Shown: positions 38,331-44,968, numbered from the stretch's first letter. The stretch: DNA of 64,000 nucleotides from an uncultured Acidobacteriota bacterium (GCA_963700065.1 CAVOWJ010000005.1:620953-684952), one strand, 5' to 3'. Notes: generated by a model from the sequence alone, not told the origin. Made by a program: numbers and translations.

Positions 38331-39728
38331 GTGGCTCCTGGCTCCAAGACCGTCCTCGTCGTCGACGACGACGAGGGGATGCGCGACACGCTGACGGCCA
38401 TCCTGCGCCGCGACTACCGCGTGCTGCGCGCGGCCACGGGCGAGATCGGGCTGTCCATCCTCGACCGCGAAACCGTGGACGTCGTGCTGCTCGACGTGCG
38501 GCTGCCGGGCATGGGCGGCTTCGAGATGCTGCAGGAGATCAGGGAGACGCAGCGCCTCGTCGAGGTCATCATGATCTCGGCCATCAACGAGGTCGAGACC
38601 GCCGTCCGCGCCATGAAGCTCGGCGCCTATCACTACATCACCAAGGACTTCGAGTACGACGCCGTGCTGTCGCTCGTCCGCAACGCGTCGGACCGCACCG
38701 ATCTCCACCGCAAGGTGATGTCGCTGAGCGCCCAGGTGGCCGACGATCGCGACCGGCCGTTCATCACGGGCTCGAGCCGCGCGATGCGCGAGATCCTCGA
38801 CCTGGTGCGCAAGGTGGCCGGCCTCGACACGACGGTGCTCATCCTCGGCGAGAGCGGCACCGGCAAGGAGCTGCTGGCCCGCATGATCCACCGCGAGTCG
38901 GCCCGCGCCGACGGCCCCTTCATGCCGGTCAACCTGGCGGCCATCCCCGCCGACCTGGTCGAGTCGGCGCTGTTCGGCCACGAGAAGGGCTCGTTCACCG
39001 GCGCGGTGCGCCAGCAGATCGGGAAGTTCGAGCTGGCCGACCGCGGCACGCTGTTCCTCGACGAGATCGGCGAGCTGAAACCCGACGTGCAGGCGAAGCT
39101 GCTGCGCGCGATCCAGGAGTCGGAAATCGAGCGGGTCGGCGGCGGCCGCCCCATCCGCGTGAACCTGCGGATCATCGCGGCCACCAACGTCGATCTCGAG
39201 AAGGCCGTGCGCGACGGGCGCTTCCGCGAGGACCTCTACTACCGGGTCAGGGTCATCCCGATGCAGGTGCCGCCGCTGCGCGAGCGGATGGAAGACCTCG
39301 ACGCGCTGGTGACCTTCTTCCTGGGCCGCTACAACACGAAGTTCAGGAAGCAGGTGCTGGGCATCGAGCCGTCCGCCATGGAGGTGCTCGGGGCCTACCC
39401 GTGGCCCGGCAACGTCCGCGAGCTCGAGAACCTGATGGAGCGCCTGGTGGCCGTCAGCGAGGGCGACTGGATCGGCGACGAGGACCTGCCCTACGAGTTC
39501 CACCTGGCGAAGCTCGTCAGGCCCGACGAGACGACCGAGGGCCTCTTCGACCGCGCCTGCGAGACCTTCGAGCGCAACTTCATCCTCAAGACGCTCGAGC
39601 ACGAGCGCTGGAACGTGACGGCCGCGGCCCGCACGCTGGGCATGCCGCTCAGCACGCTCAAGTTCAAGATGGACCGCCTCGATATCCGCCAGATCGCCCG
39701 CAAGCTCCGCCGTGCAGGCCCGGCCTGA
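38331..39728 (+). CDS. Sigma54-dependent response regulator (NtrC family: REC, AAA+, Fis HTH)
   Basis: [15 protein letters not shown]...[13 protein letters not shown]. Walker A GESGTGKE. Sigma54-contact loop [11 protein letters not shown]-terminal [26 protein letters not shown] start with GAAAGGA upstream. Confidence 0.9.
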
Positions 39729-40002
39729 CCCTTGCAGGCTGCGTGGGTCAGCGACGAATCTGAACCTTGGGGGCGTCGCAGAAACTGCAACGGGTGTCTC
39801 GCTCTGATGTGGCAGCTGCCGCCACGTGTCTCCATTGTGGACACCGACGCGCACGGGCGTCTGCTGGCAGGATGCACCCACCATTCACGAGGCGCTTTCG
39901 CGTCATAATCGCTGCGTTCAAAGGGTCTCGTCGGCACGCGGCGCGCGGCGGCCCGCAGGGTCCGGCCGCCCCGGCCGGGGCTGCAGCCCCTCCCGCCGCC
40001 GC

Positions 40003-43184: not shown

Positions 43185-44968
43185 GCACGCTGCGCGTCCG
43201 CTTCGCGCTGATGCTCGCCACGGCCGCCGTGGTGCCGCTGCTCACGTACGGGGCGGTCTCGGTGTACTCCCTGCGCGAGAGCACGCGGCGCACGGTGACG
43301 GAGGGCAACATCAACCTCGCGCGGCAGGTGGCCGAGCAGGTGCGCCGCTATGTCGCCACCAACCTGCAGATTCTCGACGCGCTCGCCGCCGATCTCGACA
43401 GCACGGGGCTCGATGCGGCGCAACAGGATCGGATTCTCAAGAACTACGTCCTCCGCTTCCCGGAGTTCCGTGAACTGACGGCGTTCGACGCCGCAGGGCG
43501 CCCCGTGGCCACCAGCCGGCTGGGCGCGCCAGGCGTCCGCATCCCCGGCGCCGACGCGGTCGACCTCTACGGCGCCCGGATGTCGCCGGTGCACGTCGAC
43601 GACGACCTCCTGCCCACGGCGCTCGTGGCCGCGCCGGTCGGCCGCGGCGGCAGGCAGGCTGGCTGGCTCGTCGGCGAGTTCAGCATCGAGGAACTGTGGC
43701 GCCTGACCGGGCGCATCCGCGTGGGCGCGTCGGGCTACGTCATGGTGGCGGACCCGCGCGGCGGCCTGCTGGCCCACGGCAATCCCGAGCAGCGCTCGAC
43801 CGTTGCGCGCGGCGAGAGCCTCGCCGGTGACCCGATCGTGAAGGCGCTGCTCGGCGCCGCGCCCGGGACGCCGCAGGTCGTCGAGCGGCAGGGCCGGGGC
43901 GGCGTGCCCGTGGTCGCGGTCGGCATCCGCGTGCCGGAACTCGGCTGGATGGTGCTGGTCGAGCAGCCCGCCCGCGAGGCGTTCGCCGCGGCGCGCCGCC
44001 ACGAGCGTGATCTCATCGCGGCCATCAGCCTCGCGCTGCTCATCATGCTGCTCGCGGGCCTGGTCTGGGGCCGGTCGCTCATCCAGCCGATCCGCGAGAT
44101 CATCCGCGGCACCGAGGCCATCGCGGACGGCCGGCTCGACGAGCGCGTCCGCGTCACGACGAAGACCGAGCTGGGGCGGCTCGGCGAAGCGTTCAACACG
44201 ATGGCGGGCCGCCTCGGCGAGCTCCAGGAAGACGTGCGGAAGCAGGAGCGCCACGCCATGTTCGGCCGCGTGGCCGCGGGCCTGGTCCACGACCTGTCGC
44301 ACCCGTTCAAGAACGTCCAGAACAACTGCCGGCTCGTCGTCAAGATGCACGACGACCCGGAATACCTCGAGCTGTTCAAGCGCACGACCGACCGCGAGTT
44401 CGCCCAGGTCAAGCGCGTGTTCGAGGATCTCCGCAACATCGCGCGGCCGATGCCGATGGAGCGCTTCCCGCTGGACCTGAACAAGCTGGTGTCGGACGTC
44501 GCGGAGTCGATGCGCGCCAACGCGTCGGCCGCGGGCCTGACCATCGACCTGGATCTCGCCGCTGACACCCTCTACGTCGAAGGCGACATGTTCGCCCTGA
44601 GCCGCGTGTGCCGCAATCTCATGATGAACGCGATCGAGGCCACCGCGCCGAACGGGCGCATCACCCTCAGCACCGCCTCCGAGAACGGGCGCGCCGTGCT
44701 GCGCGTCGCCGACACGGGCTGCGGCATCCCGGCCGACCGGCTCGACACGATGTTCGAGGACTTCAATACGACGAAGCGCCAGGGCCTCGGCCTGGGCCTG
44801 GCGATCACGAAGAAGATCGTGGATCAGTCGGAAGGGACCATTGCCGCCACGAGCGTCGTGGGCGCGGGCACGACCTTCGCCGTGTCGCTTGCACGGGCCC
44901 CAGCGCCGGCGGAGGGAATTCCCGGCGAGCCTGGCGGCGAGCCGGCCGACTGGCCGGCGCCGGTGTAG
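43181..44968 (+). CDS. Sensor histidine kinase (TM, Cache-like periplasmic domain, TM, HAMP, HisKA, HATPase)
   Basis: The ATG overlaps the SBP stop (ATGA 43181-43184). HAMP IQPIREIIRGTEAIADGRLDERV. H-box AAGLVHDLSHPFKN. N/G boxes NLMMNAIEA, VADTGCGI and GLGLGLAI. Confidence 0.9.
   Translation: MSTLRVRFALMLATAAVVPLLTYGAVSVYSLRESTRRTVTEGNINLARQVAEQVRRYVATNLQILDALAADLDSTGLDAAQQDRILKNYVLRFPEFRELTAFDAAGRPVATSRLGAPGVRIPGADAVDLYGARMSPVHVDDDLLPTALVAAPVGRGGRQAGWLVGEFSIEELWRLTGRIRVGASGYVMVADPRGGLLAHGNPEQRSTVARGESLAGDPIVKALLGAAPGTPQVVERQGRGGVPVVAVGIRVPELGWMVLVEQPAREAFAAARRHERDLIAAISLALLIMLLAGLVWGRSLIQPIREIIRGTEAIADGRLDERVRVTTKTELGRLGEAFNTMAGRLGELQEDVRKQERHAMFGRVAAGLVHDLSHPFKNVQNNCRLVVKMHDDPEYLELFKRTTDREFAQVKRVFEDLRNIARPMPMERFPLDLNKLVSDVAESMRANASAAGLTIDLDLAADTLYVEGDMFALSRVCRNLMMNAIEATAPNGRITLSTASENGRAVLRVADTGCGIPADRLDTMFEDFNTTKRQGLGLGLAITKKIVDQSEGTIAATSVVGAGTTFAVSLARAPAPAEGIPGEPGGEPADWPAPV

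What the first reader, a model, noticed from the sequence alone, without database searches (positions are those of the whole stretch)
38331..44968. Sigma54-wired radical-SAM/SPASM peptide module with its own periplasmic receptor: response regulator, -24/-12 promoter, maturase, 30-aa ORF, binding protein, histidine kinase
Five co-directional genes form one tight block.
- The NtrC-family activator carries the sigma54-contact loop (GSFTGA).
- A GG-N10-GC promoter candidate is followed 27 nt later by an rSAM/SPASM enzyme with an RRE-like N-terminus. That architecture is typical of RiPP maturases.
- A strongly SD-preceded 30-codon ORF overlaps the maturase stop (ATGA).
- A family-5 (peptide-type) periplasmic binding protein follows, and its stop overlaps the start of a Cache/HAMP histidine kinase (ATGA).

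Inference: the rSAM enzyme modifies the small peptide. The product is sensed in the periplasm by the SBP/kinase pair. The phosphorylated sigma54 activator then drives the same operon, giving a self-inducing RiPP signalling loop in a diderm. I do not recognise this exact wiring as a characterised system. Partial analogies are quorum-controlled streptide and LuxP/LuxQ-type SBP-kinase sensing.

Caveats: no exporter or leader protease is in the block. The maturase needs a 1-base correction near 40287.
Basis: partly seen in the sequence, partly recalled or inferred. Interest (0 to 1): 0.85.

Follow-up and report, generated by a model that had tools for sequence, protein, structure and literature searches.

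The report
Sigma-54-wired radical-SAM peptide signalling cassette
A soil or sediment acidobacterium carries a compact gene cassette that makes a small enzyme-modified peptide and sits beside its own periplasmic receptor, kinase and sigma-54 activator; the same cassette recurs in hundreds of species and several phyla, has no name in the family libraries searched and did not turn up in the paper searches run, and looks like an undescribed peptide signalling circuit of two-membrane bacteria.

Summary
The block holds a sigma-54 response regulator (38331-39728), a conserved -24/-12 promoter (40003-40018), an RRE/radical-SAM/SPASM maturase (40045-41488, one extra G at 40287), a 30-codon ORF (41485-41577), an orphan family-5 binding lipoprotein and a dCache/HAMP kinase (43181-44968).

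The cassette recurs in about 80 of 86 Vicinamibacterales loci examined. The short ORF is a real, conserved precursor: MKIxV[IV]KK, then 8-10 residues, then C-P-W-phi-[VI]-[DE]. The promoter, two upstream GCA-N5-TGC sites and a stem-loop after the peptide gene are conserved too.

Maturase relatives at about 29-36% identity in Planctomycetota, Omnitrophota and other phyla keep the peptide, the SBP5, the dCache kinase and the regulator in shuffled orders. Some add a TonB-dependent receptor or an ABC exporter, and some fuse the SBP5 domain to an HTH.

The maturase fails the cut-offs of every named family. The nearest is TIGR04280 (234-267 bits against a cut-off of 400).

Public short-read contigs lack the extra G, so the frameshift is probably an assembly error or private to this strain.

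That the SBP/kinase pair senses the cassette's own product remains an inference. Interest is 0.72; I rate it a new variant of a known kind.

The parts
38331..39728 (+). NtrC-family response regulator and sigma-54 activator (466 aa): receiver, AAA+ domain with GSFTGA loop, HTH_8. It lies upstream of, and outside, the sigma-54-driven unit.
   Evidence: Pfam domains; translation. The start at GTG 38331 matches the 458-465-aa homologues. No NCBIfam equivalog is passed: AtoC 433 bits against 714, NtrC 410 against 559.
39776..39791 (+). Candidate enhancer site 1, TCGCAGAAACTGCAAC (GCA-N5-TGC palindrome), about 220 bp upstream of the promoter.
   Evidence: Conserved block in the alignment of 12 upstream regions. 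Its role as an activator-binding site is inferred.
39809..39825 (+). Candidate enhancer site 2, GTGGCAGCTGCCGCCAC (GCA-N5-TGC core), about 33 bp from site 1.
   Evidence: Conserved block. Its role is inferred.
39827..39844 (+). Third conserved inverted repeat, TGTCTC-N6-GGACAC; its binding partner is unknown.
   Evidence: Conserved in most of the 12 aligned upstream regions.
40003..40018 (+). Sigma-54 type -24/-12 promoter, CGGAACGCCCCTTGCA.
   Evidence: a (T/C)GG(A/C/T)A(C/T)-N5-TTGC(A/T) element lies upstream of the maturase in most of the ~80 loci with enough upstream sequence (3 scored at chance level); 2 hits in the window against 0.14 expected; near-consensus sites in three distant loci that have a sigma-54 regulator, and none in the locus with an AraC-type regulator. 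rpoN is present in the genome. Transcription was not tested.
40045..41488 (+). RRE-like / radical-SAM / SPASM peptide maturase (480 aa when read through). It is interrupted by one extra G at 40287.
   Evidence: The intact 97%-identical homologue is P0004. SPASM TIGR04085 scores 46.5 bits against a cut-off of 27. The AlphaFold2 model has a beta-beta-beta-alpha-alpha-alpha N-terminus. The top Foldseek match is CteB.
40287..40287 (+). Single-base insertion (extra G) that shifts the maturase frame.
   Evidence: Alignment with L001-L003. It is 'left out' in every contig covering the site in two DNA runs and one RNA-library run.
41485..41577 (+). Precursor peptide gene (30 aa): leader MKVKVLKG..., core CPWMITVPPESGK.
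   Evidence: 82 distinct homologous peptides in 79 loci. Cys is kept in 80 of 82, Pro at +1 in 67, Trp at +2 in 68. Related peptides lie next to distant maturases. It is the only copy in the genome. An identical RNA-library contig covers 41392-41587.
41626..41675 (+). Long stem-loop (perfect 15-bp arms at 41636-41650 and 41651-41665, plus an outer stem) between the peptide gene and the SBP signal peptide; no U-tract follows.
   Evidence: dG about -40 kcal/mol. Relatives keep a hairpin at the same offset with different sequence. Over 75 loci the mean is -27.6 against -20.3 in coding controls.
41658..43184 (+). Orphan family-5 solute-binding lipoprotein (lipobox Cys codon at 41712). The start codon is uncertain: CTG 41658, or GTG 41535/41541 inside the peptide gene.
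   Evidence: Pfam SBP_bac_5, 205 bits. Homologues have lipoprotein signal peptides. No permease or ATPase gene is adjacent. Nearest solved relatives are YliB, NikA and AgaA, at E 1e-22 or weaker.
43181..44968 (+). Sensor histidine kinase (595 aa): TM1, periplasmic dCache_1, TM2, HAMP, H box, HATPase_c. Its start overlaps the SBP stop (ATGA).

Best explanation
The block is a self-contained cassette for a ribosomally made, radical-SAM-modified peptide, joined to a dedicated envelope receptor pathway.

Proposed mechanism:
1. The maturase binds the conserved leader (MKIxV[IV]KK) of the 30-residue precursor through its N-terminal RRE-like domain.
2. Using its radical-SAM and SPASM clusters, it installs a cross-link in the C-P-W-phi-[VI]-x core. 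The most likely chemistry is a thioether from the near-invariant Cys to a residue about five positions downstream, as in CteB- and PapB-type enzymes.
3. After leader removal and export by unlinked functions, the roughly 13-residue product (free, or carrying a ligand such as a metal) reaches the periplasm.
4. There it is bound by the orphan SBP5 lipoprotein, which docks on the dCache domain of the co-translated kinase.
5. The kinase phosphorylates the NtrC-type regulator. The regulator binds the two GCA-N5-TGC sites and activates the sigma-54 promoter in front of maturase-peptide-SBP-kinase.
6. The result is positive feedback, that is, an autoinducing loop.
7. The stem-loop after the peptide gene probably sets the ratio of peptide transcript to receptor transcript.

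Shown here: the gene content, its conservation, the reality of the peptide family, and the conservation of the promoter and hairpin.

Inferred: the chemistry of the modification, export, binding of the product by the SBP, the SBP-kinase contact, and the feedback.
For: **Linkage within the lineage.** The order regulator-maturase-peptide-SBP5-kinase is kept in nearly all of the 85 Vicinamibacterales loci long enough to show it.

**Linkage across rearrangement.** Maturase relatives at about 29-36% identity show the same parts in other orders:
- L093 and L098 (Planctomycetota/Brocadiia): SBP5-peptide-maturase-kinase-sigma-54 regulator. L102 and L103, in the same phylum sample, show the same SBP5-maturase-kinase order (L103 also the regulator) in tblastn matches; no peptide ORF was looked for there.
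- L092 has regulator-TonB receptor-maturase-peptide-SBP5-kinase.
- L097 (Omnitrophota) adds a TonB receptor and an ABC exporter.
- L099 and the P0182 locus have the SBP5 domain fused to an HTH. That would be a one-component version of the same sensor.

**The peptide is real and is the likely substrate.**
- 82 distinct sequences share the leader and the core.
- Tandem copies occur in several loci.
- The gene is translationally coupled to the maturase.
- Leader distance co-varies best with maturase distance: partial Mantel r = 0.49.

**The enzyme class fits.** SPASM is met. The model has an RRE-like topology. The best structural match is the thioether-forming maturase CteB. The best-scoring NCBIfam families after TIGR04280 are peptide maturases with Cys-rich or Cys-containing targets (CefB, TIGR04463, PapB, QhpD, SCIFF).

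**The sigma-54 wiring is conserved.** A sigma-54 promoter is present in distant loci that have a sigma-54 regulator and absent where the regulator is AraC-type. rpoN is in the genome.

**The envelope-exposed parts and the peptide core evolve fastest.** Mean p-distances are SBP 0.63, kinase sensor domain 0.54 and peptide core 0.64, against regulator 0.27 and maturase 0.34. SBP distance co-varies with the kinase sensor domain (r = 0.62) and with the peptide core (r = 0.40) after controlling for regulator distance.

**The SBP is an orphan.** It is a lipoprotein with no transporter genes beside it.

**Weak expression hint.** Contigs from an RNA library match the maturase and the peptide gene. DNA carry-over in that library cannot be excluded.
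Against: - No exporter, leader protease or TonB receptor is linked to the cassette in the window's lineage.
- The Mantel signals are not specific. Core against the cytoplasmic half of the kinase gives r = 0.395, about the same as core against SBP, and related loci are not independent.
- The Cys is replaced by Ser in a few precursor variants (L049, L081). A second, Cys-free small ORF family sharing the PW[LI]VDV motif (most often preceded by Arg) occurs in about 20 loci. A Cys thioether therefore cannot be the whole story.
- In the window's own clade the acidic residue at +5 is replaced by T, C, A, G or S.
- The window's maturase carries a frameshift as assembled.
- The nearest solved relatives of the SBP bind nickel complexes, opines and glutathione as well as peptides, so its ligand class is open.
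Confidence: 0.5

Rival explanations
1. Metallophore-type system. The modified Cys-containing peptide is secreted and binds a metal. It re-enters the periplasm (through a TonB-dependent receptor where one is linked). The SBP5 binds the loaded peptide, and the kinase and regulator adjust production. The purpose would be metal acquisition rather than cell-cell signalling, but the product would still be sensed by its own receptor.
For: - TonB-dependent receptors sit in the cassette in L092, L097 and L098, and an ABC exporter in L097.
- The SBP's best NCBIfam and PDB relatives include the nickel/metallophore binders NikA, Opp5A and CntA.
- Methanobactin operons, which also encode a ribosomal peptide product, combine TonB-dependent transporters, periplasmic binding proteins and a signalling loop (PMC3621798).
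- Distant precursors carry a CC pair.
Against: - The matches to metallophore binders are weak (E 1e-17 to 1e-28) and are usual for any cluster-C SBP5.
- One Cys, probably consumed in a cross-link, is a poor metal site.
- No metal-responsive regulator and no ABC importer is linked.
- The core evolves very fast (mean p-distance 0.64). That is more typical of signals or toxins than of chelators.
Confidence: 0.17
2. The SBP/kinase pair senses an outside cue unrelated to the cassette's product, such as environmental oligopeptides or a competitor's compound. The modified peptide is purely an output, for example a bacteriocin or a cofactor-like molecule.
For: - Family-5 binding proteins commonly bind peptides from the surroundings.
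- RiPP clusters under two-component control by external cues are common; this rests on established knowledge and was not tested here.
- No exporter or immunity gene is needed in the cassette if general systems serve.
- The complex prediction gave no usable answer either way.
Against: - The SBP5 gene stays with the maturase and peptide through several independent rearrangements, and through fusion to an HTH.
- SBP and peptide core are the two fastest-evolving parts and co-vary.
- Putting receptor and kinase inside the induced operon is the layout of an autoinducing loop.
Confidence: 0.2
3. In this genome the cassette is decaying. The frameshift at 40287 is real, so no maturase is made and the locus is a relic.
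For: The assembled sequence has the extra G. The family is patchy within the order: 8 of 24 other same-order genomes sampled carry it. L035 shows that loss happens, since its peptide core is deleted.
Against: - All contigs covering the site in three public runs lack the extra G, at 98% identity.
- The rest of the maturase and all the other genes are intact and 96-100% identical to L001 and L002.
- The genome is a 15-contig MAG. If it is a long-read assembly, single-base indels are common; this rests on general knowledge and on contig sizes, and the sequencing method is not on record here.
Confidence: 0.1

Closest known systems
Geopeptide system of NCBIfam/TIGRFAMs (peptide TIGR04229, maturase TIGR04280; defined in silico, with no paper found)
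   Same: It is the best-scoring named family for the maturase. It has the same overall layout of RRE-like N-terminus, radical-SAM core and SPASM domain, paired with a very short peptide.
   Different: Full-length members of the present family score 234-267 bits against a cut-off of 400. Distant relatives reach at most 324. The 22-position geopeptide model matches none of the ten peptides tested and nothing in the genome. I could not fetch a true geopeptide locus, so I do not know whether that system also has an SBP, a kinase and a regulator.
CteB/CteA (SCIFF, thermocellin) and PapB (freyrasin): thioether-forming radical-SAM/SPASM maturases of ranthipeptides
   Same: CteB is the closest solved structure and the closest PDB sequence. 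Both have an N-terminal RRE, a SPASM domain and a Cys-containing core. A spacing of Cys to a residue 4-5 positions on, as in the C-x4-[DET] pattern here, is my recollection for these enzymes.
   Different: Identity is only 17-18%. The family cut-offs are not met: PapB 112-125 bits against 340, SCIFF 79-98 against 425. Those substrates have several Cys, whereas this one has a single Cys. As far as I recall, those systems have no linked SBP5, kinase or sigma-54 regulator.
Streptide (SuiA/SuiB) under quorum control, and Agr/Com-type autoinducing peptides with kinase-regulator pairs in monoderm bacteria
   Same: These are short modified or processed peptides tied to a cell-density circuit. SuiB is among the structural matches.
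   Different: From established knowledge, streptide is controlled by a cytoplasmic Rgg-type receptor after peptide import, and Agr/Com kinases bind the peptide directly. Here a periplasmic lipoprotein of SBP family 5 stands between peptide and kinase, the output is a sigma-54 activator, and the hosts have two membranes.
Binding-protein-dependent sensors: LuxP/LuxQ, TorT/TorS and DppA/Tap
   Same: An orphan periplasmic binding protein encoded next to a membrane sensor and acting as its ligand-binding subunit. DppA is a family-5 protein, like the SBP here. This rests on established knowledge.
   Different: From established knowledge, the ligands are small metabolites or dipeptides from outside, not a product encoded in the same operon. 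No radical-SAM enzyme is involved.
Methanobactin operons (ribosomal peptide product with TonB-dependent transporter, periplasmic binding protein and regulatory loop)
   Same: A ribosomal peptide product whose operon also encodes outer-membrane and periplasmic recognition parts and a feedback pathway (PMC3621798). This parallels the variants with a TonB receptor.
   Different: The biosynthesis uses MbnB/C, not a radical-SAM/SPASM enzyme. Regulation is through an ECF sigma/anti-sigma pair, not a kinase and sigma-54 activator. The known function is copper uptake.

Membership tests
Radical SAM superfamily (PF04055) | CX3CX2C cluster motif and a match to the family profile | tested here: met
   PF04055 scores 62.6 bits against a cut-off of 29.5. 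CNFACDYC is seen in the translation and is invariant in 13 homologues.
SPASM domain (TIGR04085) | C-terminal auxiliary-cluster domain with CX2CX5CX3C | tested here: met
   TIGR04085 scores 46.5 bits against a cut-off of 27 on residues 300-480 of P0004, the intact 97%-identical allele. CGDCPFIPVCGGGC is in the window's own translation. Pfam's SPASM model gave no hit.
RRE (PqqD-like leader-recognition element) | N-terminal three-stranded sheet followed by three helices that binds the leader | tested here: inconclusive
   The AlphaFold2 model shows strands at 7-11, 17-21 and 26-30, then helices at 32-42, 53-64 and 72-87, with pLDDT 64-85. The top fold matches are RRE-bearing maturases. There is no Pfam hit on residues 1-95. 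Leader binding was not tested.
Geopeptide radical SAM maturase (TIGR04280) | Score at or above the curated cut-off of 400 bits | tested here: not met
   260.7, 234.1 and 266.6 bits for three full-length members. No match over the cut-off in the genome.
Geopeptide precursor (TIGR04229) | Match to the 22-position model (cut-off 30 bits) | tested here: not met
   No hit at E up to 10 for the window's peptide or for nine related peptides. No hit in the genome.
Anaerobic sulfatase maturase (TIGR03942) | Score at or above 349 bits; no RRE; sulfatase substrate | tested here: not met
   59-75 bits. An N-terminal RRE-like domain is present, and a conserved peptide partner is encoded alongside.
Other named peptide maturases (CefB, TIGR04463, PapB, FlmE/OhkG, Clo7bot, QhpD, SCIFF, YhhB, DynA, FxsB) | Score at or above each family's cut-off | tested here: not met
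   All are far below their cut-offs, for example CefB 170-189 bits against 600 and PapB 112-125 against 340.
Sigma-54 enhancer-binding response regulator (NtrC family) | Receiver domain, AAA+ Sigma54_activat domain with GAFTGA-type loop, and C-terminal HTH | tested here: met
   PF00072, PF00158 and PF02954 are all over their cut-offs. The loop reads GSFTGA. No specific equivalog (AtoC, NtrC, PrsR, ZraR and others) is passed.
Sigma-54 dependent promoter | GG at -24 and GC at -12 with fixed spacing; sigma-54 in the genome; activator-dependent transcription | tested here: inconclusive
   The sequence, its spacing and its conservation are met. rpoN is present at 451 bits. Transcription and its dependence on rpoN cannot be tested with these tools.
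Family-5 solute-binding protein acting as an orphan co-sensor | SBP_bac_5 fold, export signal, no cognate permease or ATPase, and contact with a sensor | tested here: inconclusive
   The fold family is met. Lipoprotein signals are seen in homologues. No transporter genes are in the cassette. Contact with the kinase and the identity of the ligand were not tested.
Autoinducing peptide circuit | The product of the operon activates the operon's own receptor | not testable with these tools
   Only the layout is seen: receptor and kinase lie inside the induced unit. It needs binding and reporter assays.

The most novel reading that the evidence does not exclude
This is the founding example of a widespread and so far unnamed class of peptide autoinducers of two-membrane bacteria ('CPW peptides' in Vicinamibacterales, with CC-type cousins in Planctomycetota and Omnitrophota). 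In this reading a radical-SAM cross-linked peptide is read out by a dedicated chain of SBP5 lipoprotein, dCache kinase and sigma-54 activator, sometimes with its own TonB-dependent entry gate. I know of no described peptide-based quorum sensing in Acidobacteriota or the PVC group, so it would be the first there.
Probability: 0.35. Interest if true: 0.85.

Novelty: new variant of a known kind. Interest (0 to 1): 0.72.

Why it matters
Acidobacteriota of the order Vicinamibacterales are abundant in soils and sediments and hard to culture, and I know of no described cell-cell signalling in them. The textbook view is that peptide autoinducers belong to monoderm bacteria. A conserved cassette that couples a modified peptide to a periplasmic receptor and a sigma-54 switch in diderm bacteria of several phyla would change that view.

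It would also add a new radical-SAM peptide family with a compact substrate that is easy to test. And it would supply a rule for genome mining: look for a maturase next to an orphan SBP5 and a dCache kinase.

The parts are few and well defined, so the hypothesis can be tested directly by co-expression, binding and reporter assays.

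Tried and rejected
**Complex prediction.** SBP (mature form) with the 30-residue precursor scored 0.03 against a mark of 0.34, which gives no verdict. It is not evidence either way. The natural ligand would be modified and probably leaderless.

**Literature.** Seven searches found no description of this cassette. The terms were geopeptide; TIGR04280; SPASM with sigma-54 and binding protein; Vicinamibacterales with radical SAM; ranthipeptide with Acidobacteria; and RiPP with TonB and sensor kinase. Only part of the literature is searchable here.

**A true geopeptide locus.** I could not reach a Geobacter genome.

**Terminator scan.** The consensus scan found nothing after the peptide gene. 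The stem-loop lacks a U-tract, so I do not call it an intrinsic terminator.

**RNA coverage.** Depth in the RNA-library run is nil upstream of about 40055 and downstream of about 41617. This fits a maturase-peptide transcript, but gaps in contig cover prove nothing and I do not use them.

**Chance ORF.** I considered that the small ORF might be a chance ORF of a 70% GC genome, since frame 1 is open from 39826 to 41577. I rejected this because of its conservation in 79 loci and in low-GC phyla.

**Named two-component systems.** AtoS/AtoC, NtrB/C and PrsK/PrsR are rejected because all scores are below the cut-offs.

**Synteny of the flanks.** The neighbours (lipoyl ligase, E2 and, in relatives, the lipoamide dehydrogenase upstream; HU, QueF and Smr downstream) reflect shared descent, not function. 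They are absent from the distant loci.

Full report
**What is in the window**

The window is about 70% G+C. It lies in a 5.54-Mb, 15-contig genome that is 87.5% complete.

Between 38331 and 44968 five genes run on the + strand.

- *Regulator.* The first gene encodes a 466-residue NtrC-type response regulator with receiver, Sigma54_activat, AAA lid and HTH_8 domains. Its sigma-54 contact loop reads GSFTGA.
- *Spacer and promoter.* A 316-bp spacer follows. It ends in CGGAACGCCCCTTGCA at 40003-40018, which has GG and GC at the spacing of a -24/-12 promoter. The ATG at 40045 lies 26 nt further on.
- *Maturase.* From that ATG, frame 1 encodes 81 residues that resemble the N-termini of peptide maturases. 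From about 40286, frame 2 encodes a radical-SAM core with CNFACDYC and a Cys-rich C-terminus containing CGDCPFIPVCGGGC.
- *Frame change.* Alignment with three relatives shows that the change of frame is one extra G at 40287.
- *Small ORF.* The maturase TGA at 41486-41488 overlaps the ATG of a 30-codon ORF, MKVKVLKGAKKAPSREMCPWMITVPPESGK. An AGGAGG precedes it.
- *Binding protein and kinase.* A family-5 solute-binding protein follows and ends at 43184. Its TGA overlaps the ATG at 43181 of a kinase built as TM1, dCache_1, TM2, HAMP, H box and HATPase_c.

**The frameshift**

Homologues are uniformly intact and 470-482 residues long. The closest, P0004, is 97% identical.

I laid contigs of public runs on the region. 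Every contig that covers 40287 leaves out one base there. This holds for two wetland DNA runs and one sediment RNA-library run. Those contigs are about 98% identical to the window, so they may come from sister strains.

The finding shows that the intact frame is the norm in the population. It makes an assembly error, or a change private to this strain, more likely than a decayed locus. It does not prove it.

**The enzyme**

- The SPASM domain model is passed: TIGR04085 scores 46.5 bits against a cut-off of 27, tested on the intact allele.
- An AlphaFold2 model built from 13 homologues is of moderate quality (pLDDT 65). It gives three strands and then three helices at the N-terminus, which is the topology of a leader-recognition element.
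- The best Foldseek matches are CteB, TigE, SuiB, ChlB, anSME and SkfB. CteB is also the best sequence match among solved structures.
- No curated family is passed. The nearest is TIGR04280, the 'geopeptide' maturase, at 234-267 bits against a cut-off of 400. Next come CefB, TIGR04463, FlmE/OhkG, PapB, Clo7bot, QhpD and the SCIFF maturase, all far below their cut-offs.
- The sulfatase-maturase model scores 59-75 bits against 349.

**Conservation in the lineage**

A scan of species-representative genomes found 337 loci that encode a relative. The best 80 are almost all labelled Vicinamibacterales or Acidobacteriota MAGs; four carry other labels (two Acidimicrobiia, two Bifidobacteriaceae).

With five further loci from metagenome contigs, a tblastn survey shows regulator, maturase, binding protein and kinase in the same order wherever the contig is long enough.

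The parts differ in their identity to the window:

| Part | Identity to the window |
|---|---|
| Regulator | 59-100% |
| Maturase | 58-97% |
| Kinase | 42-98% |
| Binding protein | 26-97% |

In a sample of 301 genomes of the phylum the maturase was found in 9. All 9 belong to the window's order, and within that order 8 of 24 other genomes have it. The cassette is therefore common but patchy.

**The small ORF is a real precursor family**

A short ORF of the same type lies just after the maturase in 79 of the 86 loci, the window included. Among 82 distinct sequences:

- 16-20 residues precede a Cys that is present in 80 of them.
- Pro follows in 67.
- Trp follows in 68 (otherwise mostly Phe).
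- Then comes a hydrophobic residue.
- Val or Ile follows in 72.
- Asp or Glu follows in 71.
- The N-terminus is MK[IV]x[IV][IV]KK.
- The median length is 31 residues.
- The last residue is Lys in 56.

The window's clade has T, C, A, G or S instead of the acidic residue, followed by VPPE. Several loci carry two to four tandem copies (L040, L081, L076, L063, L067, L049). The genome of the window has a single copy.

**Regulatory signals**

*Promoter.* A (T/C)GG(A/C/T)A(C/T)-N5-TTGC(A/T) element stands upstream of the maturase in most of the roughly 80 loci with enough upstream sequence, while the surrounding sequence varies freely. It lies 12-33 nt from the ATG in the window's clade and mostly 66-128 nt elsewhere. 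The pattern occurs twice in the 64-kb window where 0.14 is expected.

*Upstream sites.* An alignment of 12 upstream regions shows two conserved GCA-N5-TGC palindromes (39776-39791 and 39809-39825) about 33 bp apart and about 200 bp upstream of the promoter. A third inverted repeat lies at 39827-39844. This is the usual layout of enhancer sites for an NtrC-type activator. That reading rests on established knowledge; binding was not tested.

*Sigma factor.* The genome encodes sigma-54 (451 bits against a cut-off of 277).

*Stem-loop.* After the peptide gene there is a long stem-loop at 41626-41675, with a dG of about -40 kcal/mol. Close relatives keep a hairpin at the same offset with changed sequence. 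Over 75 loci the best hairpin in the 130 nt after the last precursor gene averages -27.6 kcal/mol, against -20.3 in coding controls. Only 14 have a T-rich tail. Related loci are not independent, so the p-value overstates the case.

**Distant relatives keep the same partners**

At 50% clustering the Vicinamibacterales proteins form one cluster. The next full-length relatives are 31-41% identical and about 445 residues long. They are still below the TIGR04280 cut-off and carry only generic names. Their neighbourhoods are telling.

| Locus | Source | Gene order |
|---|---|---|
| L093/L094 | Planctomycetota | SBP5, 33-residue peptide MKVIKKGEERLSEKNQVCCPAFAFPYNGYDEEE, maturase, dCache kinase, sigma-54 regulator |
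| L098 | Brocadiia | TonB-dependent receptor, SBP5, MKIVVIRKGQEKTTKTVCCAPCTFGGLR, maturase, kinase, regulator |
| L092 | a 37% G+C organism | regulator, TonB receptor, maturase, MKLVVVKKGSRKENAKPTKCQAFVSW (overlapping the maturase stop), SBP5, kinase |
| L097 | Omnitrophota | TonB receptor, SBP5, a short peptide, maturase, ABC exporter, dCache kinase, AraC-type regulator |
| L099 and the P0182 locus | Poribacteria and another | maturase followed by an SBP5 domain fused to an HTH |

Three more loci from the phylum of L093 repeat the SBP5, maturase and kinase in that order (regulator seen in L103), with the kinase and regulator on the other side in L104. Two loci (L100, L105) lack the binding protein.

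In the three distant loci with a sigma-54 regulator there is a near-consensus promoter in front of the unit:

- TGGCACGAAAATTGCA in L093
- TGGCATAAGAATTGCA in L098
- TGGCACCTAAGTTGCA in L092

The locus with the AraC-type regulator has none.

Linkage that survives this much rearrangement, together with a domain fusion, argues that the binding protein works with the maturase and peptide as a sensor rather than as part of a transporter.

**How it most likely works**

I read the cassette as a peptide signal with its own receptor. The steps are as follows.

1. The maturase recognises the leader and cross-links the core.
2. The product reaches the periplasm.
3. The orphan lipoprotein binds it and passes the signal to the dCache kinase.
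4. The regulator switches on the sigma-54 promoter in front of maturase, peptide, binding protein and kinase.

Because receptor and kinase lie inside the induced unit, this gives positive feedback.

For the chemistry I favour a thioether from the Cys to a residue about five positions on. The reasons are the nearest enzyme families and the C-x4-[DE] pattern. This is the weakest step, for two reasons. A few precursors have Ser for Cys. About 20 loci also hold a second small ORF type...KKKGTLRPWLVDV[AS][VL][ED]HLR, which has no Cys.

A distance analysis of 45 loci fits the model loosely.

- Mean p-distances are 0.27 (regulator), 0.34 (maturase), 0.37 (cytoplasmic half of the kinase), 0.54 (kinase sensor domain), 0.63 (binding protein), 0.64 (peptide core) and 0.41 (leader).
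- After controlling for regulator distance, the leader goes best with the maturase (r = 0.49).
- The core goes with the binding protein (r = 0.40).
- The binding protein goes with the kinase sensor domain (r = 0.62).
- But the core goes equally well with the cytoplasmic half of the kinase (r = 0.395).

I therefore treat this analysis as weak support only.

**Rivals**

- *Metal carrier.* The product may be a metal carrier that is sensed when loaded. The linked TonB receptors and the methanobactin precedent favour this (PMC3621798).
- *Outside cue.* The binding protein may sense an outside cue, with the peptide being only an output.
- *Relic.* The locus may be a relic in this genome.

I rate these at 0.17, 0.20 and 0.10, and the autoinducing reading at 0.50.

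**Comparison with what is known**

- Radical-SAM/SPASM peptide maturases with an RRE are well known.
- Peptide autoinducers with kinase-regulator pairs are well known in monoderm bacteria.
- Binding-protein-dependent sensors such as LuxP/LuxQ, TorT/TorS and DppA/Tap are also well known.
- dCache kinases paired with sigma-54 activators are well known too.

All four statements rest on established knowledge. What I could not find described is the combination seen here: a radical-SAM peptide cassette tied to an orphan family-5 lipoprotein, a dCache kinase and a sigma-54 activator in diderm bacteria. I found no name for the maturase or the peptide family, either in seven literature searches or in NCBIfam and Pfam.

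I class it as a new variant of a known kind. Its function is still to be shown.

Noticed in passing
window 41535-41712; also L003, L005, L006, L008-L013, L029, L039, L041, L044, L058, L059, L061, L066, L068, L071, L078, L084: In loci where the peptide gene sits close to the SBP gene, the SBP frame has no canonical start near its lipoprotein signal peptide. The frame is open back to a GTG or ATG formed by the Pro-Trp codons (CCG/CCA TGG) of the precursor core. That codon is in the SBP frame in 35 of 50 tight loci, and is also a start codon with an open frame in 26. Either the SBP starts inside the peptide gene with a 45-60-residue extension that contains the stem-loop, or it uses a rare start codon (CTG 41658 would give MRRSVPRLAVAGALSAFAC).
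   Followed up: partly
about 20 related loci, e.g. L056:7450-7536, L047:7546-7632, L085:7475-7564: A second conserved small ORF type...KKKGTLRPWLVDV[AS][VL][ED]HLR, lies between the maturase and the main precursor gene. It is Lys-rich at the N-terminus, has no Cys, and shares the PW[LI]VDV motif with the precursor core. It is absent from the window's clade and from the window's genome.
   Followed up: partly
L035:7462-7560: In one relative the precursor gene is reduced to MKIT fused to unrelated sequence, so the core is deleted. No ATG, GTG, TTG or CTG remains in the SBP frame. This is an example of decay of the cassette.
   Followed up: partly
L049:3938-4048 and 4133-4243; L081:7447-7557: Some precursor variants have Ser in place of the otherwise near-invariant Cys (…GKVSPWLVDVPDVPP…). 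In both loci a Cys-type precursor is also present: one copy in L049, four tandem copies in L081.
   Followed up: no
window 33835-33850 (- strand): The window's only other match to the sigma-54 promoter pattern is CGGAATAATCCTTGCT. It lies about 50 nt upstream of a 216-residue ORF on the - strand (33135-33785). By position and length, that ORF corresponds to an ECF sigma-70 factor gene in the syntenic loci L003 and L005.
   Followed up: no
many loci, e.g. L018, L019, L023, L025, L030: In clades where the promoter lies 75-128 nt from the maturase start, the leader contains a conserved stretch (…AACGCTACGGGTCTGAAC…) of unknown role.
   Followed up: no
window 39826-41577: Frame 1 stays open for 583 codons across the whole maturase gene. 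It contains both the true N-terminus of the maturase and the peptide ORF. Without the Pfam result this could mislead gene callers. It is a side effect of 70% G+C.
   Followed up: yes
window 46149-48848: A large (899-residue) protein with a Peptidase_M14 carboxypeptidase domain lies 1.2 kb downstream of the kinase, as it does in L003. It is not kept in L005 or in distant loci, so I do not count it as part of the cassette.
   Followed up: partly
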